A stretch of DNA of 63,449 nt, the filler included, from Folioceros fuciformis (lineage: Eukaryota), in assembly GCA_049999805.1 (NCBI GenBank). It is 16 parts of 16 records of this genome, joined end to end, with 100 filler letters (N's around TTAATTAATTAA, not from the genome) between each part and the next. Parts side by side here need not be neighbours in the genome. Positions count along the whole stretch, not along the records: positions 47,534 to 49,736 come from JBNGIO010003658.1; 15 more parts are not named here. One strand, given 5' to 3'. Position numbers and translations under genes: made by a program. The notes beneath the pieces were generated by a model. It made no database searches, was not told the origin of the DNA, and worked only from the letters and a program-made list of their open reading frames with translations. Below are positions 7,840 through 59,298 of this stretch, piece by piece. Position 1 is the stretch's first letter; each line of letters starts with the position of its first letter.

Positions 7840-9470
7840 TCATGGTTGCCTCCGTTTGGTTAGAAGCGATAAGGCCTTGTCCAGCACGGAGACGTAATAG
7901 TCCAGACTGAAGGGCGTGCTACTTCTCACGGGTTCGGGGGCCTGGATGTTGGCCTTCCTCCCGCCCCCGGCTTCCTTGTCCTTGTCCTTGTCGGAGGCAA
8001 CAGAGGTGAGCTCCGGGGCCGGGGACGGCGCAGATGGCTGCTGTTGTTTCTGCTGCTGCTGCGTTGAACGGGCCTTGGTCCAGGCTATCACCTTGTCCAG
8101 GACATCCACGCACTGCGCCACCACATCGGCCTCGGAGTTGTCGATGCCATTGGTGCTGGCGTTGGAGTGCCAACTCCCCAGACTGGTCTTGCGCTCTCCA
8201 CTAGACTCTAGACTGGGGAAGAATTCGTAGGACTCGGCGTGCTGCAGCAGGGTGGGTAGTGGCGTAGGGGACGGGCCNNNNNNNNNNNNNNNNNNNNNNN
8301 NNNNNNNNNNNNNNNNNNNNNNNNNNNNNNNNNNNNNNNNNNNNNNNNNNNNNNNNNNNNNNNNNNNNNNNNNNNNNTGGCGTGGTCGGTCACGAAGGAC
8401 TCCGATTCCAGCTCCGAGGCCGAGAGCGTGGTGATCCCGACCGCCACCGAAGGCCCTACCAGGCTCGGCGGCCGCAGAAGGCGCGGGCTGGCTAGCTCCC
8501 GGGAGTTGGACCTGGAGTAGTCTTTACGGCTGCTGGTAGTGGAGAGCTCCTTCATGAGCGGGGCCAGCACCTCCTGTCCGTCCTCGGAATCCTCACGCCG
8601 TCCGGAAGTCGCCATTGCGGCCGCAGCCTCGTCGTCCTGGGGAGCTGCAGGGCCGGCGGCCGCGGGGTCGGCGGAGGAGGGATCCAAATCCTCCGGCCGC
8701 CCGATGGCGAGAGCCCTGGCCCGGCGTATGGCCTCGGCAGTTTCGTGCTCCATGCGGCGCACGTCATCCATGGTGAGCCCGAACCACTCATCCAGCCAGC
8801 AGAAACACTTCCTGTGACCCTCCAGGAAGATCTTGCGCTGAGCCGTCTTGCCTATGAATTTCTCTAGGCGGGAGCCGAATCCCCAGTACGGCACGTCCAC
8901 CGTCACCAGCTTGTAGGCGCACATGACGGGTTCGCACTTGAGCTGCCAGCCCTGACCCAGAGGCCCCCGCCCCGTCTTCGAGCTGCGGAACTTGCTGGGG
9001 TCTTCCTCCTCCACGTAGTTGTCCACCGGATCCATGGAGATGTCGATGAAGTCCACGATGCGCTTCTTGAGCGTCTTCGCGTCCAGATCCAGGGCGTTGT
9101 TGGTAGTGCCGCGGTCTGCGATGTGGCGGGTCTCCAGCACCAGCCGGAAGTTGGAGAAGAAGGGGCACTTGAGCACCGTCATGCAGTAGGGGTAGGCGTT
9201 CCACGCCTCCTCCTCCAGCACGAGAGCCTTCTTGGGGAAGAGCCCCACCAGCCAGCTCGGGAGCTTGCTCGCCAGGTGGTAGAGTTTGTGCGTGTACTGG
9301 CCCTTGCGGTCCTCCTCCTCGAACGGCTCATTCTTGAGTAGCTCCACCCCGTCCCCGTCGCTTCCGTTGGACTCGCTGGCGCTGTACTTGGCCACCATGT
9401 ACAGCTGCGCGATCTTGTACTCCTCCAGGGTAAAGGGCAACACCACCCGATACTCCCAAATGCACACCAT
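7840..9470 (-). CDS. Phosphatidylinositol transfer protein (START-like PITP/RdgB family) with long C-terminal extension; spans the N gap at 8278-8377
   Basis: MVCIWEYRVVLPFTLEEYKIAQLY, GQYTHKLYHL, EEAWNAYPYC, DPSKFRSSKTGRGPL, MCAYKLV and HRKCFCWLDEWFGLTMDDVR. Below the gap one open frame runs from 8277 to the stop at 7840. Confidence 0.9.
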
Positions 9471-10141
9471 GGCGGCCTGATATGTTTGTCCTTGTCCTCC
9501 TCCTTCCCCTACCTGTTGCAATGCTACACTACTACACCACTCTCGTGACTGATGCCAATTCCTCTCCCCGAATCATCAACACACCATGCCGGATCTGATC
9601 CGATCCACCTCGAGGCAACCTCCGACAGAGAGACCAGCTGCACCACCCACCCTGAGGACAGACCAGTCCGATCCGTCCCATGCAAGAGCATTCCCGCCCA
9701 ATTTAGAAGCGTCAGGCTACAAATGTTCCCGGACGGATCCTCTCGCGAGCCCTGCCTTCTCGCCTTCCGCAACAGGCAAAAAAGGTCAGTGCGATTGCCT
9801 CCGGGATCCTGCTTCCCAGTACCGCACCACCGGGCGCTGAAGGGCTCCGGCTCATGCGCGCTCACGCAAAGGCAGCAAGCTGCCTCCGCCCACAGCTCTA
9901 CACCTCTTACGCCGGCCTTTACTATTGGAGGCGATAGTGGAGCCTGATAAGCTGGCTGCCCATTGCCTGCGGGAGGGGATGGAAAGACCATGCCAAAACG
10001 AGGCCGGTGCCGGTGCTGGTGCCGTTGTGTCCGTGCCTGTGNNNNNNNNNNNNNNNNNNNNNNNNNNNNNNNNNNNNNNNNNNNNTTAATTAATTAANNN
10101 NNNNNNNNNNNNNNNNNNNNNNNNNNNNNNNNNNNNNNNNN

Positions 10142-12477: not shown

Positions 12478-13737
12478 TCCCACCTCTTCTCTATCTTTCC
12501 CATTGCTCATGCTCCTCCCCTAGAGGCTGGCTCAGCCACCAAGGGTGAACAGTTGCAGGGGAAGACTTAGCGGGCGACCATCCAGCAAGGAAGAGGCGGC
12601 GTCCGCAGATCTTTCAAGATCAGACATCCTCTGAAGTCTCTGGATAGTCTAAGAGGTAGTAGATCCTTGTGGTGGTAGGGCCAGGAGCTCATTGGTGGCA
12701 GGTTGTGCTAGAAGTCTAAATAAGTGGCTGGTGACAGCCGGCTAGGCTATTAAAATAATATTTCTCAAGTTAGAGAGAGGTGAAGTCAGAGAGAGAGAGA
12801 GGCTCCTATAAGATCAGGTGAGCCTGAAGGAAGAAGGAGTCATTCACTTTGGGAGTCAGTCTATCTCTTTGTGAGCTCTTGGAGGTCCTCTCTTCATGGG
12901 CTCTTGTGGTTTGTTCCTGCTTGGTTTAGGACTTGCAGTGTGTTGCCGGCTGTGCAACGTCTGGTAGGATCGCAAGCNNNNNNNNNNNNNNNNNNNNNNN
13001 NNNNNNNNNNNNNNNNNNNNNNNNNNNNNNNNNNNNNNNNNNNNNNNNNNNNNNNNNNNNNNNNNNNNNNNNNNNNNGGCAGCGTGTTGCCGGTTGTATA
13101 GTGTCTGGTAGGATCACAAGGTGTAATGACCAGGGTGTAGGGGCTTGCCCCTAGCTCTTGATTGTAAAGGGTGTATCTTTCTCTCGACCTATCCACTCTT
13201 GTTCCTTGCTTGGTCAAGTGTTGTAGGCCGGCCATGTTCCATGGCGTTTGGTAAGGTTGTGGGGAGGAGATATCCAAGAGGGGAGTGTGTTCCCTTCTTC
13301 CTTTTGTTTGGGGTTAGTCTAGTGACTCTTGCCGGGTAGGAGGAGTCCGTAGGGAAGTGTAGAAGGTAGTGGTGTCGTTGTTGGTTGCTGGTAGTTATTG
13401 GTGTTGGTGCTGGAGCGAGAGAGTGAGTGAAGTGTGTGAGGGAAGTCGCAGATCTGAGAGGTTAGAGTCGTTGTAGTGACTAGAGTGAGTTTGTGGGCAC
13501 CGAGAGAGGTGCAGCTGACCGCCGGACAGCGAGGCCTGTCCTACGCCTGATCGGAGCTAGAGGGGAGCCCTCGAATCCATCATCGAGTCGATCAAGTCCG
13601 ACCCTCCATCCACAGCAGTAAGGAACCCCATCGCTCCTTCGTGGGAACGAAACCCAATGTCTCAACGACAGTGGGATAAGTATGGCCACTAAAGGTGGAA
13701 CCCATTGGCAATCAGTGCCCGGGGTTTTGCCTTTACA
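12478..13737. mobile_element. Long LTR (probably Gypsy-type) inserted into Copia gag
   Basis: Highly similar to 15909-16692. It ends ...GGGGTTTTGCCTTTACA and interrupts gag after EEQSRAFSQST. Confidence 0.75.
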
Positions 13738-15491
13738 AGTGCTTTGAGAGAATGCACGGCTTTGCTCCTCTTGATATAAAGCTCCAATCACGTCTTCTAA
13801 CGTGATTGTACTAGTGCTTCCAGAGGCTGTTGCAGTGCTAGCTTGACGAATTGGGCCATTTTGGCTAGTTACAAAAGATTGATAAGATGGAGGAAGTCTT
13901 GTCAGCAACTCGGCCACAGCATCAACTTCAGGCATTGAGATGCCTGTCAAAGAAGTTATCTGGGCCTTCAGAGTCCGGAACTTGCTGGTAAATACAGCAA
14001 CTTTGTCTCCTTCTTTCATTCGTAGGTTATAAAATTCATGTTTAAGGGCACACAGTGTAAGGACATTTTTAACCTGATATGTCTTTTCCAACTGATCCCA
14101 TATCTCTGATGCTTGTGTCAAAAATTCTACTTCAGGAACCAGATCAGCATCTAGCCCAGCAATAAGGAGAGCGACTGCAATACCATTCAACTCTTCCCAT
14201 TCTGCTATTTTTTCAGCTGTTGGGGCAGGTATTGCATTCGGATCAGGGTTTCTTTACTGTACCATTCACTATACCCCAAACATGTCTTGCAGTTAAGGTA
14301 GCCCTCATACGTATCCGCCAGACAGGGTACTTGGTACCATTGAAACGGTCTTTTTCTTTAAGTTCTGAAGTATAAGTTGCTTTAGGTGGTATTATACTTG
14401 CCATACTAACGGATGCTATTGGATTCAATGACAGAGTTTGAAAACTATGTATAATAGAATCCAATGCATTAACGAAACCAGTGGTCATAAATGACTCAAG
14501 GCAAGTACAGACAGAAACTATGGCTTTGACAACATAGGTAAGTGGGTTCTGCACTCTATTGTCTGTTTTTCCGGACACCAAGTTCTCACAAGTGGTTAGC
14601 TAGGGAAGATTCGATTTTAAAAACAGCCCGGTAAGGATGAGGCTCTGAGGAGCTTCAGCCTTATCTTGCTGGCTTTGTTATCGAATTTTCCCTCTCAAGA
14701 ATTCACCTCAAAAACAAAACAAAAAATGTAAGGTTAAGCATAACTTAAAACATGGTGTCGTTTCATGAATAAAACCCTAACTTCCTTACCGTTTCGTGCA
14801 AAACAGCAAAAAAACGGGTTAGGTGAACCAATCACAAGGGATTCGACACAACAGATCGAAGGGACACAAAAACAATTGTGTCACTTCAATCTGGCTTGTA
14901 GTGGACGCTGTCGTTGCCTACATCGCAAGGTTCTGTCCGTGCCATAAACAAAGTTAGATCCTGTAATAGAGCAATAATCTCATTTAAATCAATTCGGATT
15001 TCTCGAGATTCAGCATGTATCAATTTCTCTGTACATTGTTCGATATCTTGTATTCTGTTTTGAGTAATGGCTAGTTGATATATCAGTTGTGATTGAGAAT
15101 GTTGAATTCGTTTCAATTGTGGAAACAGCGCTGACAGTTGACCACCAGTTGTCTTCTTTTGTGTACGAGGTAATTGATAAATTCCTCCAGAATTAGGGAA
15201 TCTACCACAGGATTCCAGTCTGTTATATTGCGTATGGCTGGGCGATGCCTTCTGTTGCCGTCGGGGTTTCCTTATCACCTTATTACAACATTTTCCCTTT
15301 TCTAGATGATTTAGAAAATCTAGATTAAATACAGAGGATATTCTCTGTTGGTATTCCAGGCAGTCATGTCTATCTGGACGTACTGAAAAATATGGAGTCA
15401 TTTTGCGACTTTGATTCTTTCCGTTTCTATCATCCTGATAATTCTTCATGACTGCCCAGATGCATTATTAAGTTTGGTTGCTCTGATACCA
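13738..15491 (-). mobile_element. Ty1/Copia 5' part: PBS, upstream ORF and frameshifted gag
   Basis: PBS TGGTATCAGAGC at 15480-15491. gag starts at 14404 (KDRFNGTKYPVW, WDQLEKTY, LPPSY, LYQEE) with a frameshift near 14243. Confidence 0.85.
14886..15449 (-). CDS. Unknown 187-aa ORF between Copia PBS and gag
   Basis: The ATG lies ~30 nt downstream of the PBS. The ORF stays open for 187 codons in AT-rich DNA and has a coiled-coil-like C-terminal half. Confidence 0.45.
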   Translation of the reverse strand: MKNYQDDRNGKNQSRKMTPYFSVRPDRHDCLEYQQRISSVFNLDFLNHLEKGKCCNKVIRKPRRQQKASPSHTQYNRLESCGRFPNSGGIYQLPRTQKKTTGGQLSALFPQLKRIQHSQSQLIYQLAITQNRIQDIEQCTEKLIHAESREIRIDLNEIIALLQDLTLFMARTEPCDVGNDSVHYKPD

Positions 15492-38725: not shown

Positions 38726-40434
38726 ATGGCGACAGTAGGAGGGGGAGGAGGAGTGGGCGGTGGTGGAAGTGGGGGAGCAGGTAGTGGTGGAGTGATTCCT
38801 CAGCCACTCCCGCCTGTGCCAGTGATTCCACAACCTTCTTACTCAGTTGAATTTAAGGAGCGAGATCGCTTTAATGGCATGAAGTTCGAAGGTTGGAAGG
38901 TGCGCATGACAGCTGCCCTGCAAGCGAGACACGTTTGGGGAGTTGTTAGCGGTACGCTTAAGGAACCTGCACAGTCTGCCACACAAGAAGAGAAGGACAA
39001 GTGGGCGAACCTTAATTATGTTGCTCGTGCCGTCATCATAAGCGGGCTGGACGAGACTCTCCTTGCGGATGTTGCCTTCTTAACCAAAGCTGAAGACATC
39101 TGGATCCTGCTCACACAAACATATGAAGCTAAGAACATTCTTACCATGTGTGCTGTGCGTGGTGAACTCTTCTCTTTGCGGCTTAAGGAAGGCGATAAGG
39201 TGTCCCCATTTGTCATTCGTTTTCGTCAACTGCGGGCTCAACTCATCAACCTCGGCTCACAATTCCCGGAGCTTGATGCCGTTAGCCAACTTCTGACCAG
39301 CTTGCCTCCTAGCTATCAGACTTTTGTCTCCAGCTACGGAGCAATTGTTCGCGCTGCCGATGAAGCTAGAGCAGCCGGCCAGCCAACCAACATCAACCTA
39401 GCTAATGTGATTGGCGCCCTGCTACAAGAGGAACAAAGCCGCAGTCAATCTACTGTTAGTAGTGGTCTAACCAAGGCTGATAAAGTTCTCTATTCTCAAG
39501 GAAAGAATATCAGAAGGAAGCCTACCTCCGGTGCAGGTGCAGGCTCTTCGAAATCCACCTCTGTAAAGAGATCTAGCGCCTGTAACTGGTGTGGTGTACA
39601 GGGCCACTGGGAACGGGAGTGTAGAAAAAAGAAATCAGGGGAGCCACGCAAAGCTGAGAAGTCCTCCAAACAGGCTGAAGCTCATGTGGCATCCAAGGAT
39701 TGACTTTCCTCGTCGACTTCAACCAAACCGCCTGTTGTCATGACGGTTTGCCTTGCATCTTCTGCTCACCCTTCCCCACAAAGTTGGTATATCGATTCAG
39801 GGGCCACTTCTCACATCTGTAACGATAAGTCACTGCTCAATCATTTTCGTTCTTCTCAAACTACTGACAAAGTGCTTCTGGGAGATGAGCTTACACGTAC
39901 AGGTTTGAAGATAGCAGGTTCTGGCTCCTGTCGTTTCCGTCTCCGGGACGGTTCAGTCCTTCACCTGGACAATGTTCTTTACGTCCCTCATATGGCTAAG
40001 CACTTGTTGTCCGTTAGCCAGCTTATGTCCCTACGCACCTATGATTTGCTCTTCTCTTCTTTCCGCTGTGAGCTTAAGACGAGAGGGGAGGGAGGTCAGG
40101 TTGTTGCTACTGGACATATAGTACATGACTTGTATCAACTTGATTTAACAGTCATACCTCCAGATTCTGCTCATGTTGCCCAGTCGTCGCAAGCTGCTCA
40201 GGCCAGTCTTTGGCATGCCCGCCTAGGTCATGCGAACTGNNNNNNNNNNNNNNNNNNNNNNNNNNNNNNNNNNNNNNNNNNNNNNNNNNNNNNNNNNNNN
40301 NNNNNNNNNNNNNNNNNNNNNNNNNNNNNNNNNNNNNNNCAAAAGGAGAGACCCTTTCCAACATCCAAGGCACATCGAGCTTCACATATTCTGGAACTGG
40401 TACATGCAGATATCTCTGGAAAGGTCCACATACC
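38726..40434 (+). mobile_element. Ty1/Copia gag, protease and integrase N-terminus
   Basis: DRFNGMKFEGWKVRM, LPPSY, CNWCGVQGHWEREC, WYIDSGATSH, WHARLGH and ELVHADI. A single in-frame TGA lies at 39701-39703. Confidence 0.92.
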
Positions 40435-40534
40435 NNNNNNNNNNNNNNNNNNNNNNNNNNNNNNNNNNNNNNNNNNNNTTAATTAATTAANNNNNNNNNN
40501 NNNNNNNNNNNNNNNNNNNNNNNNNNNNNNNNNN

Positions 40535-42396: not shown

Positions 42397-43845
42397 ATGT
42401 GGGGCCGAGGTTCTCACCGGCTCCTCCTTCGTTGCCTAGGTGAGTAAGCAGGAGCTGGATGTGGTGTGTGAGAGCTCTCGTCTCCGTGGTTGATGGCCGT
42501 TTGGGTGATGGTGTTGTGCAGGCAGTGTGTCTAAGCATGGGGGAGCAAGGTCAGCAGCTGGTCCGGGAGGGTTGCAGAGTCGGGTGGAGAACGGCTGGTA
42601 TGTCAACTGGATTTCTGCCTGACGTTCTGCTGTCGTGGAGCAAACTTGTGGGGAGGATCTTTCCTCACTGTTTTTTTGGCAGGGAGCGGCAGATGCAGTC
42701 AGGTGCCGAGCTCATCTGGACTCAGCAAGGGAATGCTTCGGATAGATTAGGGCGTAGTTTTGCAGGTGAATGTCTAGGGATTTGTGACCTTTTCTGGATC
42801 CAGCCCTTCTGGCTGAGCATGTTTCATTCCTTTGAGGATCTGATGAAATCCGAGGAGCTAAGACCGTGTGTTGATTACTTAAATACGATTAGGTTTCTCG
42901 GCTGAAGGCAGGCATGGAGGTGGATGGAGAGGGGGGCAGGAACAGGGAGTCTGCATGAGGTTGATGACAACAGGCACGGACGATCCCAGTTCACAAGCAC
43001 AGCATGTGGAGAACTCGGTTGGCTCAGATGAAGGCGATTCAGCTGAGGTGGGAGTGACAGCTGTTGTGGGGGAAGGCTTTTCATTGGACGGTGGGAATCT
43101 GCCTGTGACTGCTTCAGGGGCTGAAGAGGGCTCTTCCGGAGAGTTTGACGATTTGATAGTAACAGTTTCAGGGCCTGAAGACAGCTCCTCCTCGACCTCC
43201 GACGAGGATGTACCTGCTGCAGGAGAGGAAGGTTCGTCCACAGATGGTGGTGATGTTGTAGACTTACAGGTCGGAGACTCGGACTCGTCTGGCGTTCTGC
43301 ATGCCGAAGCAGCGTCAATCTCATCAGCGGGGCACGAGGGCATGGTAACAGGGACAGGAGGGCAGGCTGTGGATTCTGATGATGCAACAGGTGCAACTCT
43401 TCAATCCACTCCTGATGACCTCCTCACAAAACCAGAAGAGCAAGAGATCTCAGAATCGGAGGAAGCCAAGCAGAAGATGGCAGAGCTAGCTGAGGAGTTA
43501 AACAAGTCCCTCGAAGACTTCAAGAAAGCCCGATCGCACACAGCCAAGGTCTACGTCCACATCAAGTCCTTCGAGAAGATCCGGCCAGGAAGGCTGCCCA
43601 ATGTGCGGAGCGCGGGGTTGCCAGCCCGACGAAGCCTTTTCACTATCAACAGATCACCCCACGTCGACAAGAAAGCTAGAGACCAGTTCCAAATGAAGGT
43701 ACGCAAACACTTGCTTGTCATAGAAACAGAGACCCACAAACTCCACGAGAAGCTCCACCAGCTGAGAAACCATGATCTACCAGGTGTCCAGCTCAAGGTG
43801 ACCTTCCTTTACCAGACCCGTCTAGACATGTCAAAGCTAGCGTAG
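42397..43845 (+). CDS. rps10: Nuclear-encoded mitochondrial ribosomal protein S10 with presequence and acidic extension, 4 exons
   Basis: Exons 42397-42439, 42522-~42597, ~42683-42765 and 42893-43845 splice in frame. The S10 core GLPARRSLFTINRSPHVDKKARDQFQM...GVQLKV resembles plant mitochondrial rps10. Confidence 0.85.
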
Positions 43846-43951: not shown

Positions 43952-45003
43952 TCAGTGAACCAGCTGCAGCCCAGAGGCATCTTGACAGGGCTTCAGGGAT
44001 GGCACCAGCTTTACCACGGCCTTGGCGTCCAGCTCGGGATCATGGGGACACACATAGGTGGATGCTCCTCCCTGGTAGCAGCCATCCATGGACTGGCCCC
44101 GGATGCACCCACCCCCTTCCTCGAAGCTGATGATCCACGGAGTAAGCCCCCCATACGCCTGAGCCAGCTCACTGTACGTGGACATGGGGCTGGTGAGCAG
44201 CTGATCAGCCAGACTCAAGCACAGTATCTCCACCAAAGCTCTCTCATCCACATCCAGCCCAGAATACTGGTCTCCTTCCCGGGTGAGCTGCACCAACCCT
44301 ACCACCTCCCCGGTCTCCGTGCCCTCTTCTGGGAACCGTCCTCCGAGATACTCATACAACCCGCCGTACAAGGACGCTATGAAAACCATCACCCGTCTCT
44401 CCTCACCATGTCCCTGCCTTCCCCCGACCTCCACGGAACGGTTCGGCAGAATCCCGTTCTCCAAGGCGCACTTAAGCACGTTCCGGTTGACCACCCCGTT
44501 CCGCTCCCTGTACTCCGGGTACCCGTCCCGGTACCGGACGTGCACTCCAACGACCCGGTCGGCGTCCAGCATATACGCCTTGTGCACCCGCTTCACCCTC
44601 GTCCAGACAGCGTCCACCGGCAGCAGCCCGTAGCGCAGCAGGTGCGTCAACGGAATTCGTTCTCCGAACAGCTCCTCCAGAACGGGCCGGAAGGCCGGCA
44701 CGGCGAAGAGCTCCGGGAGGAAGTAGAGGCATCCTCCGAGCGTGAGCCAGGGAACTGCCTGGAAGGCGCGTTGCTCCGTGGTGCAGTAGAAGCGCGTGGC
44801 CGGGCCCCAGGAATCATCGCCCCGCGCCGCGTAAACAGACGGCGGCTTGCCCTTGGCGCCGTCAATTTTTGACGTGAACTCGTCCGCCGTCGTCCATAGC
44901 TCGGGCCGCAGGTCCGCGAACGGGAAGTCTGGCGGCGCCAGCCAGGACGAGCCTGGGAAGGGCTCGCACACGAGGTCGGGGACGCGCGACCTCGGGTCCA
45001 GGA
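43952..45003 (-). CDS. Xyloglucan galactoside 2-alpha-L-fucosyltransferase (GT37), 5' truncated
   Basis: CEPFPGSSWL.P.DFP, YFLP.LF..P.F...LEELF, VGVHVR, VFIASL, ALVEI..LSLAD.L.TSP.ST....AQ..GGL.PW and PCQD...GLQL. Confidence 0.9.
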
Positions 45004-47533: not shown

Positions 47534-49736
47534 GGAGGTAGGCTAAAGGAGGCGATGGATGTGTTCAACAGGGTAGGGAACGCGAATGTCTTCATGTGGG
47601 TTTCCATAATCTCTGCACATGCTAAGCACGGGAAGCCGAAGGAGGCCATACAACTGTACCATAAAATGCGTAGGTCAGAAGTGAGGGCGAATGGTTATGT
47701 CTTTGTAGCCGCCCTTCAAGCTTGTGCATTTGCTGCCGATTTAGAATCTGGCAGAACAGTGCACCGCGACGTGTTGCGCAGTGGCTTCCGTACTGACTTG
47801 TTTGTTAACAGCTGCTTGGTGGACATGTATGCAAAATGTGGCCGAATGAAAGATGCACGCCAGGTTTTTGATAACATGAACACGAAGAATGTGGTGACAT
47901 GGAATGCCCTGATCGCTGGGTATGCACAGCAAGGACTCGGCCAAGAGGCGCTTGTTGTGTATGGACAGATGGAGGAGGCAGGCCTCCTGGTTAATGATGT
48001 CACTTTTGCTTGCCTTCTGAAGGCGTGTGCAAGCACTGGTGCCTTGCGGAAGGGCAGGGAGCTTCACTCACAGATTGTCAAGAGAGAACTGCTGGATAAT
48101 ATAGTGGTGGGAAACTGCCTGGTGGACATGTATGCAAAATGTGGTGAGCTGGAATGTGCCCGCCAGGTTTTCGACAAGATGGCCTCGAAGGATGTGGTGA
48201 CATGGAATGCCCTGATCGCTGGGTATGCACAGCAAGGACTCGGCCTAGAGGCACTTGTCGTGTATGGACAAATGGAGGAGGCGGGCCTCGTGGTGGCTGA
48301 CCGTGTTACTTTTGCCTGCCTTTTGAAGGCGTGTGCAAGCACTGGTGCCTTGCAGAAGGGCAGGGAGCTGCATTCACAGATTCTGAACAGAGGTCTGCTG
48401 GATGATGTAGTGGTGGGAAACTGCCTGGTGGACATGTATGCAAAATGTGGTGAGCTGGAATATGCACGCCAGGTGTTTGACAGCATGGACACGAAGGATG
48501 TGGTGACATGGACGGCCCTGATCGCTGGATATGCACAGCAAGGACTCGGGCAAGAGGCGCTTGTTGTGTATGCACAAATGGAGGAGGCGGGCCTCGTTTT
48601 TGCTGACCGTGTTACTTTTGGTTGCCTTCTGAAGGCGTGTGCAAGCACTGGTGCCTTGCAGAAGGGGAGGGAGCTTCACTCACAGATTGTTCACAGGGGT
48701 CTGCTGGATGATGTAGTGGTGGGAACCTGCCTGGTGGACATGTATGCAAAATGTGGTGAGGTGGAAGATGCACGCCAGGTTTTTGACAGCATGCCCACTA
48801 AAGATGTGGTGACATGGAATGCCGTAATTGCTGGGTATACACAGCAAGGACTCGGCCAAGAGGCACTTGTTGTGTATGGACAGATGNNNNNNNNNNNNNN
48901 NNNNNNNNNNNNNNNNNNNNNNNNNNNNNNNNNNNNNNNNNNNNNNNNNNNNNNNNNNNNNNNNNNNNNNNNNNNNNNNNNNNNNNAGGCAGGCCTCGTT
49001 TTGGCTAATGATGTTACTTTTGCTTGCCTTCTGAAGGCGTGTGCAAGCACTGGTGCCTTGCAGAAGGGCAGGGAGCTTCACTCACAGATTGTCAAGAGAG
49101 AACTGCTGGATAATATAGTGGTGGGAAACTGCCTGGTGGACATGTATGCAAAATGTGGTGAGGTGGAAGATGCACGCCAGGTTTTTAAAAGGATGGCCAC
49201 TAAAGATGTGGTGACATGGAATGCCATGATCGCTGGGTATGGTGCTTGTGATGAAGGTTGCAACGCGCTAGCTTGTTTTGAGGAGATGTTAGCTGCCGGT
49301 GTTCATCCTGACGATGCTACTTTTACTTGCCTTCTAGTAGCATGCAGTCATGGGGGTCTGGTCCAGGAGGGTCGCAAGCTCTTTGATTCCATGGCTGAAC
49401 AGCATGGTGTCATACCTACTGTTGAGCATCACGCCTGCATGATTGATCTTCTTGGGCGTGCTGGCGAATTAGATGAGGCAGAGAGGGTGCTATTATCATG
49501 TGAGGGCCAAAGTGATGTGGTGTGTTTGACATCTTTGTTGAATGCCTGCAAAAGTCATGGAGATGTAGAGAGGGCTGTGTGGTGTTTTGAAAGCATTGTT
49601 AGGCTGGACCCCCAGAAGGCACCGGCCTATGTTCTCATGGCCAATGCCTATGCAGATGCAGGTAGGTGGACCGATGTAGACAGGATTGAAACACAGAGAA
49701 AGGCAGCAGGAGCTAAGAAGAAGCCAGCAGTGGCAA
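47534..49736 (+). CDS. PLS-class PPR protein with E1/E2 motifs and the start of a KPAxA (DYW:KP-type) domain; truncated at both ends
   Basis: Repeated P-L-S triplets, then P2-L2-S2 (ACSHGGLV, HHACMIDLLGRAG), E1, E2 (AYVLMANAYA..GRW) and KKKPAVA at the scaffold edge. Confidence 0.93.
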
Positions 49737-51383
49737 NNNNNNNNNNNNNNNNNNNNNNNNNNNNNNNNNNNNNNNNNNNNTTAATTAATTAANNNNNNNN
49801 NNNNNNNNNNNNNNNNNNNNNNNNNNNNNNNNNNNNCTCCATGAGAGGCGCGGCGCGTAATGTATGATGCTCTGAAAATACTTTCAGGCCCGTGAATGCG
49901 ACTGCGGCGGGAAGTCATGATCGCCCTAATCACAAGCATGTGGGATTCAGAAGCCTGTAATGACTTACTCGTTGGCTTTTATAGCAATGTCTAAATTTCA
50001 GACTGCAAATGCGAATCACGAGAATGAGGATGATTTTGCAACGACAATAATGTGGGACGACCTTCCAACGACAGGGTAGACATTTCATTGTTCTACTTAG
50101 TTCCTGATCTTGCTTGCTGGTCAGACTATGAGAACCCTCCATCCAACCCCCTCGGAAGGTGAATGCCGCGATAGTGCATTCAAGGTATGCACAAGTTGCA
50201 CTGTTCACAGTTGGACAACTTCCCAATCAAAAGGTGTGCCAGACCGCAGACGCGACAAAACAAACACAGCTATCCCGAAAGAAATGTTCTGACACTAGTT
50301 CCATTAATGCTCACTTTCCACCCATNNNNNNNNNNNNNNNNNNNNNNNNNNNNNNNNNNNNNNNNNNNNNNNNNNNNNNNNNNNNNNNNNNNNNNNNNNN
50401 NNNNNNNNNNNNNNNNNNNNNNNNNCTTTCCACCCATTTGGCAGCATGATGGAAGGCACGGTTGTTCATTTGCTAACGAATATGATTCAAAATTATGCAG
50501 TTCATCATCAATCATGCCAGGCAAGACACACTGCGAAACGGATGGAATCGCCAGATGACACACAACGAAGAAAACGAAGACAAGCAAAATCCAGTAGCAA
50601 GTCAGCGACGAGGAGATGCTCGACGAGAAGATGCTTGACGAGGAGGCGCTTGGACAAACCAATTCAAATGGGGGGCGGGATTGATATGCCAGTGCAAGAC
50701 AGATGCGGCCTACTTCAGGATTTGAACACAGGGATGCAATTTGTATACTGGTCTACATTGAACTGCTCATGGGCTGGCTCGTTACCCCACCTTGGTACTC
50801 GGCATCCCTGTAGACAGACCTAATGCAAGACACGGGCGTACCACACATAACAGTGCCATTTCACGGACGGCACAAGCATTAGACTGCTGGACCCTGGATG
50901 TGTGAATGTTCGAGAAAAAGGTGATGTGGAAGGGTCCACTCCTTCGAAAATATTGAGATGCACTTGTGAAAAGGAATGCAAACTTAACTTTGATTTTAGC
51001 TTTGGCTTTGGGGTAAAAATTGACACTACCCTTCCTCATTACGCTCACACTGCACGATGGCATTGGAAGCATATAATGGAACTACGACAGGTGCCAAGGG
51101 TGAAGGGTCAAAAGAGATATTTTGGATCGTTCTGTTATGCTCGTGTTGAGGGAACTGGGAAGTGCACGTGCCATTCATTTCAGGATGGTATGCTTAGTTC
51201 CAGCAGCAGACTTTGAAAGCTAAAGGGGACTCACAAGACATTGACGGCTCATCAGGCTGACATTTCCCTTGTGCAGCACATTTCAAGAAAAGACTCCCAT
51301 TGTTAGGCCCCAGAAACCCGGGTCGGTTAGATTCAGGACAAAAGCACGGTGTGCAACAGCACAGAAAACATACCTGCGCAGAA

Positions 51384-54300
51384 CTACTGTTGCTCCTGGC
51401 CACCTCGTGGCTTATCCTGCTGTTGCATCTGTTGCAGAAGTGCAGCAGCCAGCTGCAAAGTAGCTTCAAAACGCTTTTGCTTCTCGACTTCTTCTTCCCC
51501 ACCTGTTGACACCTGACTAGGAGCTGCTTGTTGCTCGGCAGGAGTCAAACTACGAATCTGCTGCACCTGGGGTTCAGCCCCGTCCCAGTGCTGAGTCTGA
51601 TTTGGCCGTTGCCCTTGCTGCTGTTGCGACTGTAGTGCATGCTGCTGCTGTCCCCACTGGGACTGGGAAGTTGCTCCCACAGCTGGAGGCTGCAAAGGCT
51701 GCGATGAGTGAACTTGCTGAACTTGACCTTGCTGGGCAACATGCGACTGAACAGTTTGGGGCAGTTGCTGAGAGGTGCTGGTTGCAGTAGGCTGCTGCTG
51801 CTGAAAATGTTGCTGAAGCAAGTGAGCAGCTTGCTGCTGAGCAGGCTGCTGCTGTCTTTGAGTCAAAAGTGCAGTCAATTGAGCCAACTGCTCAGCAGGT
51901 AGCTGAGGCGCAGATGAGGATTGTGGTGGCCTGGACTGCTGGAGATACTGTCCACTGAATCCAGGTAAGGGGAACTCCTGACTCTGGACGTTATGAATAC
52001 TTGACGAGGAAACCTGTGGAATACCCGGCTGCTGTGGAGAACTCTGTTGCTGCGCAAGAGGAGTTTGCTGCTGCTGGTGTTGCTGCTGAGCAGCTCCTGC
52101 CTGATAGATCTCCGGCAAGGCCTGCAAGCCAGTAGAATGATGGGTGACACCACCGCTGGCAGGAGATGGCTGATTCTGTTCTTGATGTAACTGATGCCAG
52201 CCCTGGGAGGCCGGACTTTGGGTTGGTCTGAACGCCGGTCTGGGATCATTTACTCCTGAACTACTAGTCAATAAAGGACCCTGCGGCATTGCAGAAGGGC
52301 CTCTTCCTGCAGTGACTGTGCCACTTTGAGAAAACTGTGCAGAGACAGCTACTGCTTGCCCTGGAGCTGAGTTTGATGTGACTGGGTTGTTATGTGCTTG
52401 CTGTGGCAGCAAAGCGGTCAAGGAAGCTATCAGCTCCGGTGTCAGACCTGCCAGGTTACCAAGTGGAGCCTGAGAGGCTGTGTTGGGTCCTGCTGAAGGA
52501 CCCTGTCCAGATTGATGTCCCGGAATAAGGGGAGGAGATGGGCCACGAAAGCCAGGAGGAGCATCCTGTACAGGGCCAGGAACCACAGCAGGTCCCACAG
52601 CTTGGGAAAATTGCTGATGGGTTGAAGGCTGTGATGGCTGCTGTACTGATGCCTGCTGCTGTTGAGGCTGTGAAGGCTGAGCAAGAACTACATGTGGTTG
52701 TTTGAGAACAACACCAAATAAACAATCGTTACCTGGTACCTTGAGGACTTTCTCAGAGAACTCAGAAGGTGGAACCAAAAAGAGGGTGGTTCCATCACCC
52801 AATTTTGCGACTCCTGCTCGACGTTTCTCTCCCAAATAATGCATGAAATCCTGATACGGTGGGACATCAGGGTCTGCTTCAGGCACAAAAAATACTACAC
52901 CAAAGTCCCCTGCTTGATACACATGTTTAGCTAACATGTCGAGATCTGTCCGAGCCGTGCAATTAACCACGTCAGGCCTGCAAATCGTTCCAAAGCAGTT
53001 AGTACGGGAGCTTGCGATGATAAGATCAGGAGTCTGAGTGCAAACATTGAATATGAAATAACGATCTGGGAACTTGGACACAAACAGAATGCACCCTTCA
53101 CACACTTCCACACATGCACAGCAACTTACACATTGGCATCGATGCCCTTCCCAACAGGAAAGCAACGGGCACGACAGACAGGAGTGCCTCCTTTGGCTAT
53201 AGTGCCATGCCACCCCCAACTTTCGTTTACAGGACCTGTTCCACTTTCTTGACCATGCAATTCCCGCTTCCCTCCGGCAAGATATCCACTGCCCACAGAG
53301 GTAGCATGTGGCAGCATGCCGGCTGGTCTGGAGACCTCCAACTGCAAGTTCAATCGAGCCCTGGATCCCGAGAGTGCATAGTCATCACCTGCCAGTACAC
53401 CTTGTCTAGCGACACCATAACCTGCACTTCCCAGGTCCGTGGTGGAACCTAGATTTACACCTTCTATCCCTGCAAATCTACGGCCATTGAAATTGTCGAA
53501 GGAAGAAGCTTCTCCAGAAGCACCAACCGAATAGACTCCAACGCGAGCTCGCTTTTGCTCCCTTGATGCAAGATCTTCATCTGGCAAATCCCAGGCATCT
53601 TCATAGCTATGTCTACCACCAGCTCTCAGACCTGAGCTAGAAACACCAACACGTGCAGCCTGACCAGCCATTTGAAATTCCATCTCATCCATTATCATTC
53701 TTCCGTCTCCTCTACCCATACCACGCCCTAGGCTCATACCTGGCCCCAGGCCTACAGTCCTGGAGGACACAACCCCTCGACCAACAGGATTACCTGTCAA
53801 CACTTCTGGTCGCAAACTACTTATCCTCATGCCTGGACTTGAAGGCCTCACAGGGCTGCCAGCTCCAAGACGGTCCACACCACCAATGGTAAAACGAGTT
53901 GGCCCCACACCCTTGACCGGCGGTTCTGAGTACCTGGTACCTGGGGACTCTATTATATCTCTGGGATTGTCCACAGGACCTATTTCACTCTTGGAGTACC
54001 TTATATGGACACGAGGGTCATCAAACAGCTTTCCCTCAAGACCATCTTTCGCTCGCGTTGCCTCTTCAACACTCCTGAACTGCACGAAGGCATAAGTGCG
54101 ACCCGGAAAAGTTTTGATCCTCTCAATCTCGCCAAACGGAACGAAAGCTCTACGGAGACCTTCCTCATCAACCTTTGCATACAATGGGAATCCTACCCAC
54201 AAGACTTCACTAGGTTCTCCGTCTTTGTCTTTGGCCCCACTAGTTGAACCTAAGCCGCTTCCAAACCCAGCCTGCACAGGTGTAAGGGCCAAATAAATCC

Positions 54301-55725
54301 GTGACAGTCAGCGCTTGACACTGATGTCGCAGTACGGAACACTTCCAAGAAAGAAAGAAAGAAAAGTAAGTCAGTAAGGACCACATGCTGCAATAGCTGC
54401 ACCCTTGGAATCAAGAGAACATGCTAAGTAGACAATCCCACAGACAATAATCAAACGGTAATAAACATACCCGATGATCCCTAGACACAATCCTCTCCTC
54501 TCCCTGATGTCGATTACCAGACAGTGCAGCTTCCTGCAAATACAGCTACAACAATGTCAGCAGTCTGTGGAACCCGATGTTGTGCACAAAACTGTCATCT
54601 AAAAACGAGACATGGTACCCCTCGAGCCTCGAGTGGAACTCGGGAAACACGTACACGTTTAAGAGGCTGAGACCGCACATAGTCAACTCGAAGCTCCTCA
54701 TCTCCAAGGCGTTTCCGATTCACAGCATCAACTGCAGCAACTGCATCTTCAAGCCTTGCATATTCTACAATGGCACAATTACCGTCTTGCAAAGATTGAT
54801 AGTACTCCAGGTCTCCAAATCCCCGTAAACTCACCCTCAAAATCTTCCTTGGAGACTGTCTGACCGATCCCTCCTACCCATGGATGCCTGCTGGGCTTGG
54901 CCTGGACAATTTTGAACGCAGGCAGCTTCATCCGTAAGGAATGGTTGCTCATGGCGTAACTCACACGATAGAAGAAATTAAGACAACCAGTGCTAACAAT
55001 CCATCCTGCATCTGCTCATCATCCTGCACGAGTTTAACCCTTACGCCACCTCTGGACCGCTCTTCGCAGTGTGATGGCAAACCATGCTGGCTGCTAACGG
55101 ACCTAACAACAAAGGCATGCAATGAAGCTGTGCAGGAAATCCCACGGGCCAGGCGCAAAGGTACAGTCCGGGCTCTAGACCAGCTTACCCCCTTGGCGAA
55201 CTCAATACGCATAGCCAGTCCTCCCAGATTGACTCCTTGCAAACCATTTTTAGCATCCACAGCGTCCTCTTCCTTCATAAAATTGATGAAGGCATAGTTC
55301 CTTTGAGAGTAGACGGTCACGCCCTCAATCTCCCCATATTTGGAAAACTTCTCGGTAAGGACATCTTCCGAGACGTCTTGCGACACATTCCCAACCCAAA
55401 GGTGCCTCGAAGCAGGAGCATCCTCGTCTTCTGGCCTCTGAGAAGCAGAATGAGTGCGAGAAACGTGATGCCGCCTGTCGTCAACACGGGGTCCGTGGTC
55501 GACGGGAAATCCTCCTCGGAAGGGAGGTCCAGCCTGATATACCAGCACACAAGCAGATGCCGCAGAGTCGTAAAACCTCACCTCACAACCAGAAGAATTC
55601 ACCTCAAACATAGACAGGGGCCCGGAGGCCTTGACGCTGAAAAATTTACCCACCGGAAACGGTGGAGCACCTGGGCGCCGGACAGAGTAGCCAGGGCCAC
55701 TTGCAGCTTCAGGGCGGAATTGCAT
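51384..55725 (-). CDS. FPA: FPA (Spen family): RRMs, SPOC domain and Q-rich tail, multi-exon
   Basis: RRM1 SRHLWVGN..RNYAFINF, degenerate RRM2, RRM3 PSEVLWVGFP..GRTYAFVQF, SPOC WHGTIAKGGTPVCRARC..RTDLDML..TLFLVPPSEF, and C-terminal KRFEATLQLAAALLQQ. Confidence 0.9.
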
Positions 55726-56916
55726 GGCGGGCGCTCTTGTGCTGAAGGGAATCCGTTTCTGCACGACCGCATATTATGTCAGGTATGTACGTCCGGGGAG
55801 GGGAGGGGATCGGCCGCCAGAACAAACACTAATCTACCTCTCCTTCTCATCACCCGACGCTCCAGTGACCATCTAAGCAAGGCCTGAGGAGTGCATACCT
55901 AATAGCTCGCCCAAGCACCCGACCGCCTCCCCTCAGTGCAGCTCCACCCAGGCCTCACTCTGCCGCAAATATTTTGGCCCAGCCACCCTGGCATCGCCAG
56001 AAAAACCCGGCAAGTCAAGTCAGCAGAGCATGTTCGCCCCTTAACAACGACGTAAGCCCTAATTCGCCACAATTCATTACTAAGAACAGTAGTATGTCCA
56101 GAGGTGTATTTGTTCTGGTGCACAAAGGCAGGGCTCCCTTATCTCTTTCTCGCTGAAGAGATTCCTTATTCAAGGAAGGTTAAAACGTGCTCAGCGTTGC
56201 TTACTGACGATGGACGATGTGGCTTCCAAATGGCCTAGGGCTTGGGGCCATGAGAGCGTGGGATGAGGAAACCGGAGACGATGTAGCAACTGGGAACGAG
56301 GCGTTAGGCATCGCGTAGTACACTGAACTCCTTCAGCTTCATTCGCGCTTCACTTCAAAGTCATCGGGAGACCTAATCCGATTCCCCTATGGGTAGACGG
56401 AAGAGATGGTTCTCTAGATGCGGCCAACCACACCTGCTGCAGCCCCGCTCTCACCCTAGCCGAGAGGAGGGACGCCCACCTAGACGCGGCTTCAGCTTTT
56501 TTAATTTTTCTACAGATATTTGGTTCAATTTCTTTTTTCTTTTTCCCCGGTTTCTGTTTGATAAACTGGATGCACGAGGTCGACCTGGGTCTTCCCATCA
56601 AAGTCTTCAGACGCCGTCGGGCAGCACACCTTCGCCAAGCACAGTACAGTACGAACAGGACACTCACAAGAGGCAAGTCATTCCGCTCGCCCATGTAAGC
56701 ATGATCGCGCCCAGGCTGGCATGCGGATGTCTACCGGTGAAGGACAACCACACACACCACCCATTTAATTGGTTTGTAACAACTGCCCTTGGAGCATAGA
56801 AGAGGGCGGTCCGAAAGACGGGGCCCTGTGACATCTGCACCTACATCTACTGTACGTAGACCACCGCACTACCATAGAAGAGAGCAACAAACAAAAGAGA
56901 TCATGGTAGGTTGCTG

Positions 56917-57842
56917 TCAGACGCCAAAAACCAGATCAACTAGTCTAGAGAAGGTGGACTTCACTGGCGACGCAAGGGTGACAGCTGAGGTAGAGGCTCC
57001 ACTTCGGGCACTGTGCAAGTACAAGGAGCGGGATGAAGGCCGCCAGGCTGGTACAGAAGTAGAACTCTTGCCTAGCGTGCCCAGAGGGAGAGCCATGGAA
57101 GGTGAAGGCCTCAAAGGCCCCCTGTTCATGAGAGCTATTCGCTGCAGGCGGTCCAAAGGCTTCACCCCGACGATGAGAGCGGTGTTGAGATACATCCCGT
57201 TCTTCTGAAGAGCGAGTTGGGCATCATAGCTGTTTTCGTACTGCAGATGCATCCAATTGACGCTACCAGGCCCTGGCACGTAGTGGACAATCGGTCCACA
57301 TTTCTCGAACTCCCTCAGCACCAGCTTGGTCTCATCCACCCCGAATCCGAAGACAGTGACCCACTCCTCCCCCTCGGATGCATAGGACGCAGCTGCCCTA
57401 GCAAGCTCAGGCCGGACGATGTTGCGTTGACAGGCTGCAGCATCCAGCACCACACCGCTACCGTCTGATGGCAGCTCCTGCTCGTGGCCACCGGCGTACC
57501 CCAGCTGCGCGAAATCGGCGAAGGAGGAGGAGGAGGAGGAGGAGAGCATTGCAGTACCACCGTCCGAGCGGACACGGGGTGCTGCCAGGGCGGAGGCAAA
57601 TTCAGGAGAAGCTTCAACACGATCCTCCAAGGAATAGAACGGAGGAGGAGGCAGCTGGTGAGCGCCGGTCCCATGGCCATCACCTGCCGCTGACGCTGAT
57701 GGAACAGCAAACGAGGCATCCCTGAAAACCATAGGTTGCTGCTGTCCAACTCGCCTCGGAAGCATTGTCGCCGCTTGATTCGTTTCCCAAATCCCTTGGC
57801 CACTGCAAGCTGTGGGAAGGAAACTCCTACAGCTTGTCTGCC
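56917..57842 (-). CDS. NUP35: Nucleoporin NUP35/Nup53, last exon
   Basis: LPPPPFYSLEDR, EEWVTVFGF, VLREFEKCG, NWMHLQY, ALQKNG, IVGVKP and C-terminal SRLVDLVFGV. Confidence 0.9.
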
Positions 57843-58336
57843 CTAGGAAATACACACAGCATAGTGTACATTACATGACAACACACCAGGGCTCTCTTTT
57901 TATTAACACGTACAGATGGACCTACTGTACGTACCTACATATACGGTCCGCTTGGCGCACGCTTTGGCTGTTTGCACTAGTATGGCATGACAAAGGGGAC
58001 ACGCCCCTTCTCTCTAGCTTTTTTTTACAAACACTTGGGTTATGCGTCCGCTTTGGCGCATACACGAGTTTGAAGGCCAAAACCAAACCGAACATGCTTG
58101 CACTTTGCAAGCAAACCTTGCCCAAGCACGCGCGCCCCCCCCCACCCATGGTTACAGGCAGTGTTTGGTATGGTTTTTTTACAAACACATGGGTTATGTG
58201 TCCCCTTTGGCTCGTATGCGAGTTAGAGGGCCAAAANNNNNNNNNNNNNNNNNNNNNNNNNNNNNNNNNNNNNNNNNNNNTTAATTAATTAANNNNNNNN
58301 NNNNNNNNNNNNNNNNNNNNNNNNNNNNNNNNNNNN

Positions 58337-58801
58337 GGGCTTGATCGTGGACCATATGTCGATGGTGAGACTGTCGGGGTGCGTTGTGAGGTAGATGACA
58401 GCTACGGCTCCGTGAGAAGGATCTTCCTCCAGCTTGAGCTGGTAAGACGCATTTTTGGCGGAGTTGGAAGTGAAGGATTGCCAGATAATGGCCTGATCTG
58501 ATGTGCTTTCATGGACGACCAGGTTGCCGTTGGTCATCATGCTGAGCATGCATGTTTGGCCGCTTCCTTCCGTGTAAGAGGACCAGACTGCTTGCGGCGC
58601 GCCCTCCCTGGTAAGCACCAGCCCGCAGTCCGGCTGCATCGTCAGGCGAAGTTGGCTTGATTGGAGATACTGGCCCGGCCATAGCGACGAACCTTGGTCC
58701 AGGACATCCTGCGCGGCCCAGTCCTCTTGGTCGCTGCCGGAGAGGGCCTCCGCGACCCGAGACAGCATGAGCGGCAGGAGCAGAAGGCAGGAGGATGCCA
58801 T
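58337..58801 (-). CDS. Secreted or receptor bulb-type (GNA/B-lectin) domain protein, 3' truncated
   Basis: Hydrophobic signal peptide followed by L.PGQYL, LTMQPDCGLVL, VWSS.T, LSMMTNGNLVV and IWQS. Confidence 0.85.
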
Positions 58802-59298
58802 GGACGGTGATTTTGGAGCCTTGAGTCGGTGGTAAGGGTTTAGGGTTTTGAAGTCGTGCAGTGTTCGAGGGCGGGAGTGTAGGATTCCGTGACTCATTCA
58901 TCGGAGAGGGCCTCGCCTGTCGCGTGGGAATCGTTTGCTCTGTCCAATGCATCTGGATTCCTGAACGCGAATTGGATCTCCGCCTTGGAACCCACGAGAC
59001 GAGACGAGACGAGACGCCAGAGCTCGAGCTTCGAGCACGTCTGCGACACTACAACTTTATCAGCTTTGGGAGGACGAACCATATCTTTATCCAACGTGCT
59101 CTCCGTTAGATCACATGAGCTGTCGAGGATTTCTATCAAAAAAATATACATGTACAGACAAAAGAGACTCATTTTTTATTATTTTCTGCTTACTGACGTA
59201 CAGATTTCTATATTGCATATAATCCCGGGGCCTTTGAAAGGCCCTTGAATGATCGTAAATATTAAACCATGCAGCCCTTGGGCAGACTGTGGACAGAT

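What the first reader, a model, noticed from the sequence alone, without database searches (positions are those of the whole stretch)
49420..49736. KPAxA-type PPR: candidate reverse (U-to-C) organellar RNA editing factor
Seen: after E2 the sequence reads RKAAGAKKKPAVA (KPAVA at 49721-49735), where canonical C-to-U factors have the PG box (PGxSWIE). Established: the KPAxA/DYW:KP variant is confined to lineages with U-to-C editing (hornworts, ferns, some lycophytes), and designer DYW:KP proteins perform U-to-C editing, but native factor-target pairs are largely unassigned. The catalytic domain itself is cut off by the scaffold edge, so activity is inferred.
Basis: partly seen in the sequence, partly recalled or inferred. 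Interest (0 to 1): 0.75.

Follow-up and report, generated by a model that had tools for sequence, protein, structure and literature searches.

The report
Truncated hornwort-type DYW:KP PPR gene fragment
This is the front and middle of an ordinary plant nuclear gene for an organelle RNA-editing protein of the known "KP" class linked to U-to-C editing, cut off by the end of a small scaffold just as its catalytic domain begins.

Summary
RKAAGAKKKPAVA is read in frame at 49697-49735, and KPAVA (49721-49735) sits exactly where C-to-U factors carry the PG box. It lies on a 2,203-bp scaffold (47534-49736), one of 16 joined in the window. The scaffold carries an open PLS-class PPR frame cut at both ends, with a 100-N gap inside.

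The catalytic domain is absent from the window and could not be recovered.

Indirect evidence that the gene belongs to the DYW:KP class is strong:
- With KPAVA removed, the L2-S2-E1-E2 region matches KP-type proteins best.
- In a careful tree it groups with three proteins ending in GRP (100/89), inside an all-HAE group (99/83).
- All 8 database relatives with KPAxA at this junction continue into a 132-134-residue domain, 7 with HAE and 1 with HCE.

A neighbouring scaffold's gene points to a bryophyte that is neither moss nor liverwort, so probably a hornwort.

The class has been described since 2020, and designer versions perform U-to-C editing. I rate this a new member of a known kind. Its activity and target are untested, so interest is low.

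The parts
47534..49736 (+). Whole small scaffold. It carries one open reading frame (734 codons including the gap), open at both ends: a PLS-class PPR gene fragment.
   Evidence: N-runs and linkers. Translations without stops. Pfam PPR E 4.6e-79 and 9.7e-30.
47534..48886 (+). PPR array, first part: the 3' end of an S1 motif, then P1-L1-S1 triplets a, b, c and d, then the first 27 residues of a fifth P1.
   Evidence: Motif map, (boundaries drawn by hand). Pfam. Triplets b, c and d are 88-90% identical to each other in DNA.
48887..48986 (.). 100-N scaffolding gap inside a P1 motif; true size unknown.
   Evidence: The flanks read ...VVYGQM | (E)AGLVLAN. Near-identical family members read ...VYGQMEEE before 48992 (loose ends). 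The gap may therefore be only a few bases, or those bases plus whole triplets (inference).
48989..49207 (+). End of a P1 motif, then L1-f and S1-f.
   Evidence: 93% DNA identity to triplet b.
49208..49516 (+). P2 (49208-49312), L2 (49313-49420) and S2 (49421-49516).
   Evidence: Pfam PPR matches.
49517..49720 (+). E1 (49517-49618) and E2 (49619-49720), the PPR-like motifs.
   Evidence: Pfam E_motif PF20431, residues 190-248 of P0001, E 1.7e-14..
49721..49735 (+). KPAVA: the first five residues of the DYW domain, KP-type in place of the PG box.
49737..49836 (.). N44-TTAATTAATTAA-N44 linker to the next, unrelated scaffold. The gene's 3' end is not in the window.
   Evidence: tblastn with six full-length KP relatives found matches only inside 47537-49699.

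Best explanation
This is a fragment of a nuclear gene for a PLS-class pentatricopeptide-repeat protein of the DYW:KP subclass, most like the GRP-ending variant, from a land plant that is probably a hornwort. What the sequence shows: at least 18 P/L/S motifs followed by E1, E2 and the first five residues (KPAVA) of the C-terminal domain. What is inferred: the missing 3' part encodes a domain of about 133 residues with HAE...CxxC zinc ligands, the conserved active-site lysine and a GRP-like end. Also inferred: the protein is imported into a chloroplast or mitochondrion, its PPR tract reads the RNA just 5' of one uridine (S2 at -4, E1 at -3), and the domain converts that U to C. The chemistry proposed in print for designer KP proteins is attack of the lysine on C4 of the uridine, giving a Schiff-base intermediate. 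The target site is unknown.
For: The motif sits at the PG-box position. With KPAVA stripped, the 136-residue L2-S2-E1-E2 region gives six KP-type proteins as its top BLASTP hits: three ending in GRP at 60-62% identity, then DRH, DHH and DAH enders. A designer PG protein reaches 51% and natural PG proteins 49% or less. The careful IQ-TREE run (68 rows x 136 columns, motif excluded) puts the window in a 4-row group with the three GRP proteins (100/89). That group lies inside a 10-row group that is otherwise all HAE (99/83), and the KP|PG split has support 96/89. All 8 of 8 relatives with KPAxA at the junction carry a 132-134-residue domain, 7 with HAE and 1 with HCE, while 0 of 117 xPG relatives have HAE. 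The relatives show the printed KP hallmarks: the 3-residue xHP deletion, HAE, NLRMC and GRP/DRH ends (compared with PMC9478123 passages). The frame is open over all 700 readable codons. Thousands of short contigs in four public runs match at 90-99%, as expected for a very large PPR family. Hornwort genomes are reported to hold 1,583-2,308 PPR genes (PMC13386178 passage). For lineage, a PITP gene on another scaffold has liverworts and mosses as its best named hits, at only 64-67%. Designer GRP-type KP2 and KP3 edit U to C at about 26% and 22% with no C-to-U activity in E. coli, and Lys88 is essential (PMC11845758).
Against: The catalytic domain is not in the window. No active-site residue, domain length or terminus has been seen. 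The single base after KPAVA is A, so the next residue cannot be the G (GRP type) or C/V (DRH type) seen in the closest relatives. One KPAxA relative (P0223) has HCE, keeps xHP and ends CQQ, so the motif alone does not fix the subtype. Triplets b, c, d and f are 88-93% identical in DNA and the scaffold comes from a short-read-style assembly with an internal gap, so the array may be collapsed or chimeric between paralogues. C-terminally truncated PPR forms are reported as enriched in hornworts. The sample of relatives is small and was shaped by the length limits of the searches. The lineage is inferred, since no named hornwort protein appeared. No native DYW:KP protein was seen tested in the papers listed.
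Confidence: 0.75

Rival explanations
1. The gene is a truncated or decayed family member (an E+-like protein or pseudogene). It has the KP-type box but no working catalytic domain. It would then be inert, or would act only as an RNA-binding specificity factor.
For: The domain is unseen. Of 117 xPG relatives that reach the junction, 70 have tails shorter than 120 residues, although some of these are fragments. PMC13386178 reports the truncated E+ subgroup as enriched in hornworts. The base after KPAVA does not fit the closest relatives.
Against: All 8 of 8 KPAxA relatives have a full domain. The frame is open through all 700 readable codons, with well-kept PPR consensus residues.
Confidence: 0.12
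2. The scaffold is an assembly chimera or collapse of several near-identical paralogues. On this reading the array as written (the order and number of triplets, and perhaps the join of array to E1-E2-KPAVA) is not one real gene, although each piece is real KP-family sequence.
For: Triplets are 88-93% identical in DNA. There is a 100-N gap inside a P1 motif, and the scaffold ends on both sides within the gene. Pieces laid at 90% or better on 750 bases numbered 24,318, 6,059, 1,937 and 9,743 in the four runs. Only 277 to 3,828 per run were at 99% or better, and no listed piece spanned the stretch.
Against: The stretch from S1-f to KPAVA (49115-49735) is continuous sequence, and P2-L2-S2 is only about 60% identical to the repeated triplets. 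The part that matters for the finding is therefore unlikely to be a join. The classification does not depend on the upstream array.
Confidence: 0.2
3. It is a DYW:KP-class protein that in vivo works as a C-to-U editor or as a two-way editor, not as a dedicated U-to-C editor.
For: Designer KP6 shows both activities in human cells. Single substitutions switch the direction (PMC11845758). Four of seven designer KP proteins showed no U-to-C activity in E. coli.
Against: The window groups with the GRP type. The designer versions of that type, KP2 and KP3, gave U-to-C and no C-to-U editing in E. coli.
Confidence: 0.06

Closest known systems
DYW:KP PPR proteins, GRP variant (hornwort candidate U-to-C editing factors; designer KP2/KP3 of Ichinose et al. 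2022, PMC9478123)
   Same: It has a PLS array ending P2-L2-S2-E1-E2 and KPAxA at the start of the C-terminal domain. The three nearest database proteins (P0003, P0005, P0009; 60-62% identity over L2-E2) end in GRP and carry HAE and NLRMC in a 133-residue domain.
   Different: Only 5 residues of the domain are present. The residue after KPAVA cannot be the G seen in those three relatives. The nearest relative is only about 62% identical, so no orthologue is in hand. The name 'KPAxA' is recalled from Gerke et al. 2020, which is not held; a full-text search for the word found no relevant paper.
DYW:KP PPR proteins, DRH variant
   Same: These have the same KPAxA box, HAE and a 132-133-residue domain (P0006, P0008, P0004, P0007). 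They form the sister group in the tree.
   Different: They are 54-57% identical over L2-E2 and fall outside the 4-row group that holds the window.
Canonical DYW:PG C-to-U editing factors (e.g. OTP86, PPR56, designer PG protein P0010)
   Same: They share the overall architecture, the same E1/E2 motifs and the same position for the box. [quoted passage not shown]
   Different: They have PGxSW rather than KPAVA. Identity over L2-E2 is 51% or less, and they lie on the other side of a 96/89 branch.

Membership tests
PLS-class PPR protein | Tandem P, L and S pentatricopeptide motifs followed by E1 and E2 | tested here: met
   Pfam PPR E 4.6e-79 and 9.7e-30, and E_motif E 1.7e-14. Motif map with lengths 35/35/31 and P2-L2-S2-E1-E2 (boundaries drawn by hand).
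DYW:KP subclass | A KP-type box (KPAxA) in place of the PG box at the start of the DYW domain | tested here: met
   KPAVA at 49721-49735 lies in the same alignment columns as the PG box.
DYW:KP subclass | The upstream C-terminal motifs (L2-S2-E1-E2) group with DYW:KP proteins rather than DYW:PG proteins | tested here: met
   Careful tree with the box excluded: 100/89 with the GRP proteins, 99/83 inside the HAE group, and a KP|PG split of 96/89. The BLASTP ranking agrees.
DYW:KP subclass | HxE(x)nCxxC active site with Ala in HAE | not testable with these tools
   The sequence lies beyond the scaffold end. Recovery failed. Relatives have it.
DYW:KP subclass | A domain of about 132-133 residues lacking xHP, and the conserved Lys88 | not testable with these tools
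   Same reason. The feature is described in passages of PMC9478123 and PMC11845758.
DYW:KP subclass | A C-terminal triplet other than DYW (GRP or DRH) | not testable with these tools
   Same reason. The nearest relatives end in GRP.
DYW:KP subclass | Source organism is a hornwort, lycophyte or fern | tested here: inconclusive
   For the PITP gene of scaffold 7458-10041, the best named hits are liverworts and mosses at 64-67%, and the top unnamed hit is 83%. This fits a bryophyte outside those two groups, so a hornwort is inferred, but no named hornwort sequence was seen.
U-to-C RNA editing factor (function) | Site-specific U-to-C conversion in organelle RNA | not testable with these tools
   No organelle genome or editome of the source is at hand. 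No RNA holder was listed.

The most novel reading that the evidence does not exclude
The four to five P1-L1-S1 triplets that are 88-93% identical in DNA are real and mark a very recent duplication of triplets inside a GRP-type gene. The few differences fall at the specificity positions: residue 5 is T in both P1-d and S1-d, but N in the other triplets. The locus would then catch a native U-to-C factor in the act of acquiring a new, longer target. Once completed, it could give a native factor-target pair for the least understood DYW:KP variant.
Probability: 0.12. Interest if true: 0.45.

Novelty: new member of a known kind. Interest (0 to 1): 0.2.

Why it matters
DYW:KP proteins are the only known candidates for site-specific U-to-C RNA editing. 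So far the chemistry has been studied with consensus-designed proteins, which stall as RNA-protein crosslinks in bacteria (PMC11332814 abstract and passages). A native, full-length factor of the GRP type with a known target would be useful for that question. This fragment is not that: it lacks the domain and the N-terminus, its array may be misassembled, and it is one of what are probably hundreds of such genes in its genome. It mainly confirms that the source genome belongs to a U-to-C-editing lineage.

Tried and rejected
Extending the 3' end was tried five ways, and none worked.
- No whole genome is held for this window.
- tblastn of six full-length KP relatives against the window matched only 47537-49699, so no stray DYW domain lies on the other 15 scaffolds.
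- I laid the Logan contigs of four runs (X1, X2, X4, X13) on 48987-49736. This gave thousands of pieces of about 90-120 nt at 90-99%, and no listed piece spanned the stretch. One 313-nt contig of X4 overhangs the end, but it has 8 mismatches in 102 bases, so it is a paralogue, and its letters are not shown.
- A protein search for shorter entries (136-436 aa) gave a best hit of 56% identity, so there is no near-identical fragment.
- An exact 37-base search of metagenome contigs gave 0 matches.

Expression: no RNA holder was listed, and contig depth cannot be used to judge expression.

Whole-library phmmer with P0001 ranks hits by bits summed over repeats, so long arrays win. I used it only as a pool of sequences.

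Target prediction: I drew a 5th/last-residue table. The P/S code recalled from memory (ND=U, NN=C>U, TD=G, SN=A) would give, from -19 to -6, A C n U U n U G n G C n U U, if the gap hides no extra triplet. No organelle sequence of the source is available, so nothing could be matched, and I place no weight on this.

Earlier findings of this scan: three look-ups returned nothing.

Gerke et al. 2020 is not held. Supplementary figures of PMC9478123 and PMC11845758, which hold the KP alignments, could not be seen and might refine the subtype call.

I considered a structure prediction and dropped it, because a PPR solenoid without its domain would add nothing.

Full report
WHAT THE WINDOW IS. The 63,449-base window is not one stretch of a chromosome. 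It is 16 small scaffolds joined by N44-TTAATTAATTAA-N44 linkers, nearly all with a 100-N gap inside. The finding lies on the scaffold 47534-49736 (2,203 bp; gap 48887-48986). No whole genome is held for the window.

THE OBSERVATION. One search shows aag cca gca gtg gca at 49721-49735. Translation from the scaffold's first base gives 451 residues without a stop up to the gap (P0002). After the gap it gives 249 residues without a stop up to the last full codon (P0001), ending ...RIETQRKAAGAKKKPAVA. Both parts are saturated with PPR matches (PF01535, E 4.6e-79 and 9.7e-30). Pfam's E_motif model, which runs through the PG box, aligns residues 190-248 of P0001 to profile positions 1-59 of 63 (E 1.7e-14). 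My motif map (boundaries drawn by hand against recalled motif lengths of 35/35/31) reads as follows:
- the 3' end of an S1 motif;
- four complete P1-L1-S1 triplets (a-d);
- a fifth P1 broken by the gap;
- L1-f and S1-f;
- P2 (49208-49312), L2 (49313-49420), S2 (49421-49516), E1 (49517-49618), E2 (49619-49720);
- KPAVA (49721-49735).
One further base (A) follows, and then the linker.

IS IT REALLY THE KP CLASS? The motif alone is five residues, so I looked for evidence independent of it. A search of the 5.8-billion-protein set with the last 135 residues gave seven top hits (P0003-P0009, 53-63% identity, 194-245 bits). After them the score drops to a synthetic PG-type protein (174 bits) and natural PG proteins (150 bits or less). 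Six of the seven carry KPAxA followed by xIEV, and the seventh carries RSAKA. All seven end in GRP, DRH, DHH or DAH rather than DYW.

I then cut KPAVA off and used only L2-S2-E1-E2 (136 residues). By BLASTP against the fetched proteins P0003-P0272, the best six hits were KP-type: three GRP enders at 60-62%, then DRH, DHH and DAH enders at 54-57%. The designer PG protein reached 51% and natural PG proteins 49% or less.

For a tree I kept hits whose alignment covered the region and that had at least 120 residues after E2. That gave 65 rows, to which I added P0006 and P0008 by hand. I labelled rows by the residue in HxE, a feature outside the tree's columns. The careful IQ-TREE run (68 rows x 136 columns) gave these supports:
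- the window with the three GRP proteins: ultrafast bootstrap 100, SH-aLRT 89;
- that group inside a 10-row group that is otherwise all HAE: 99/83;
- an 18-row side (13 HAE, 3 other, 1 HSE, plus the window) separated from 50 HSE rows: 96/89.
The label needed 2 changes, not 1, so the split is not perfectly clean.

Of 189 fetched relatives whose alignment reaches the end of E2, 8 have KPAxA at the junction. All 8 continue into a domain of 132-134 residues, 7 with HAE and 1 (P0223) with HCE. None of the 117 xPG proteins has HAE.

The alignment shows in the relatives the features that PMC9478123 lists for DYW:KP (passages read): a changed PG box, loss of xHP, HAE for HSE, Met for Val in NLRxC, and GRP/DRH ends.

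WHAT COULD NOT BE SHOWN. None of the catalytic features is in the window, and five attempts to reach them failed:
- no genome is held;
- no DYW-coding sequence lies on the other scaffolds;
- public-run contigs are about 100-nt pieces of a very large paralogous family, with 24,318, 6,059, 1,937 and 9,743 pieces laid at 90% or better in four runs and no listed piece spanning the 750 bases;
- no near-identical shorter protein exists in the database, the best being 56%;
- the last 37 bases have no exact match in metagenome contigs.

Two details argue for caution. First, the lone base after KPAVA is A, so the next residue is not the G or C/V of the nearest relatives. Second, triplets b, c, d and f are 88-93% identical to one another in DNA. 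In a short-read-style scaffold with a gap inside a P1 motif, that invites collapse or chimerism.

The flanks of the gap read ...VVYGQM and (E)AGLVLAN. Loose ends of near-identical family members read ...VYGQMEEE before 48992. The true gap may therefore be only about four bases, or that plus whole triplets, and either keeps the frame. This is inference.

The part that carries the finding (S1-f to KPAVA) is continuous sequence, and P2-L2-S2 is only about 60% identical to the repeated triplets. The classification therefore does not hang on the doubtful part.

SOURCE ORGANISM. A phosphatidylinositol-transfer-protein gene on another scaffold (window 8379-9470, minus strand) has liverworts and mosses (Riccia, Marchantia, Calypogeia, Ceratodon, Physcomitrium) as its best named hits, at 64-67% identity. 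The top unnamed hit is 83%. [quoted passage not shown] The GRP and DRH variants are described for hornworts. A hornwort is therefore the simplest reading, but it is an inference, because no named hornwort sequence appeared. Composition (about 38-59% G+C in 2-kb windows) and long uninterrupted exons do not contradict it.

HOW IT MOST LIKELY WORKS. By homology with the family, the nuclear-encoded protein is imported into a plastid or mitochondrion. The PLS tract binds the RNA 5' of the target in register (E1 at -3 per the PMC9478123 passage; S2 at -4 recalled). The C-terminal domain then converts one uridine to cytidine. Designer GRP-type domains (KP2, KP3) do this at about 26% and 22% in E. coli with no C-to-U activity, and HAE-to-HAA or CxxC-to-AxxA mutations abolish it. 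Lys88 is essential, and its replacement turns the enzyme into a C-to-U editor (PMC11845758 abstract and passages). A Schiff-base crosslink between the lysine and C4 of the uridine has been proposed. In bacteria the reaction stalls at the crosslink, while edited RNAs in a fern are not crosslinked (PMC11332814 abstract and passages). All of this is transferred from designer proteins, and none of it was tested for this gene. The listings of two literature searches showed no paper testing a native DYW:KP protein. Code-based matches of native proteins to U-to-C sites are reported to exist (citing work that is not held).

VERDICT. I put the chance that this is a genuine DYW:KP-class gene, GRP-like, at about 0.75. 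Rivals are a truncated or decayed copy (0.12), a two-way or C-to-U KP enzyme (0.06) and, not exclusive of the others, a partly misassembled array (0.2). The class has been in print since 2020, and such genomes hold very many PPR genes: 1,583-2,308 in four hornworts. This is a new member of a known kind, incomplete at both ends, and of low interest by itself.

Noticed in passing
window 1-63449: The window is 16 unrelated small scaffolds joined by N44-TTAATTAATTAA-N44 linkers, nearly all with a 100-N internal gap. Gene neighbourhood across linkers therefore means nothing.
   Followed up: yes
window 47891-49207: P1-L1-S1 triplets b, c, d and f of the PPR gene are 88-93% identical in DNA, while triplet a and P2-L2-S2 are about 60%. 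Residue 5 is T in both P1-d and S1-d but N in the sister triplets. This is either a recent duplication of triplets within the gene or an assembly collapse.
   Followed up: partly
window 51387-55773 (-): Exons of an RRM-RRM-SPOC protein with a long Gln-rich tail. SPOC matches at E 8.6e-18 and RRM_1 at 2e-10 and 1.3e-13. The architecture recalls FPA/SPEN-like RNA-processing proteins (recalled, not tested).
   Followed up: partly
window 8379-9470 (-): Phosphatidylinositol transfer protein (PF02121) in a single long exon. The best named relatives are liverworts and mosses at 64-67%. I used it for placing the lineage.
   Followed up: yes
window 38726-40486 (+) and 13480-14253 (-): Copia-type LTR retrotransposon gag (PF14223, E 1.5e-28, for 38726-39700). 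A similar gag-like frame lies at 13480-14253 (not scanned).
   Followed up: partly
window 43955-45001 (-), 5912-7357 (-), 58337-58897 (-), 56920-57870 (-), 42883-43842 (+): Other ordinary plant genes: xyloglucan fucosyltransferase family (E 1.1e-43), a receptor-like protein kinase, a B-lectin domain, a Nup35-type RRM nucleoporin and a ribosomal S10 domain protein.
   Followed up: partly
window 48064-48675 (-): There are long antisense open frames opposite the PPR array, for example one of 203 residues. I read them as a by-product of the repeated, stop-poor sequence, not as genes.
   Followed up: no
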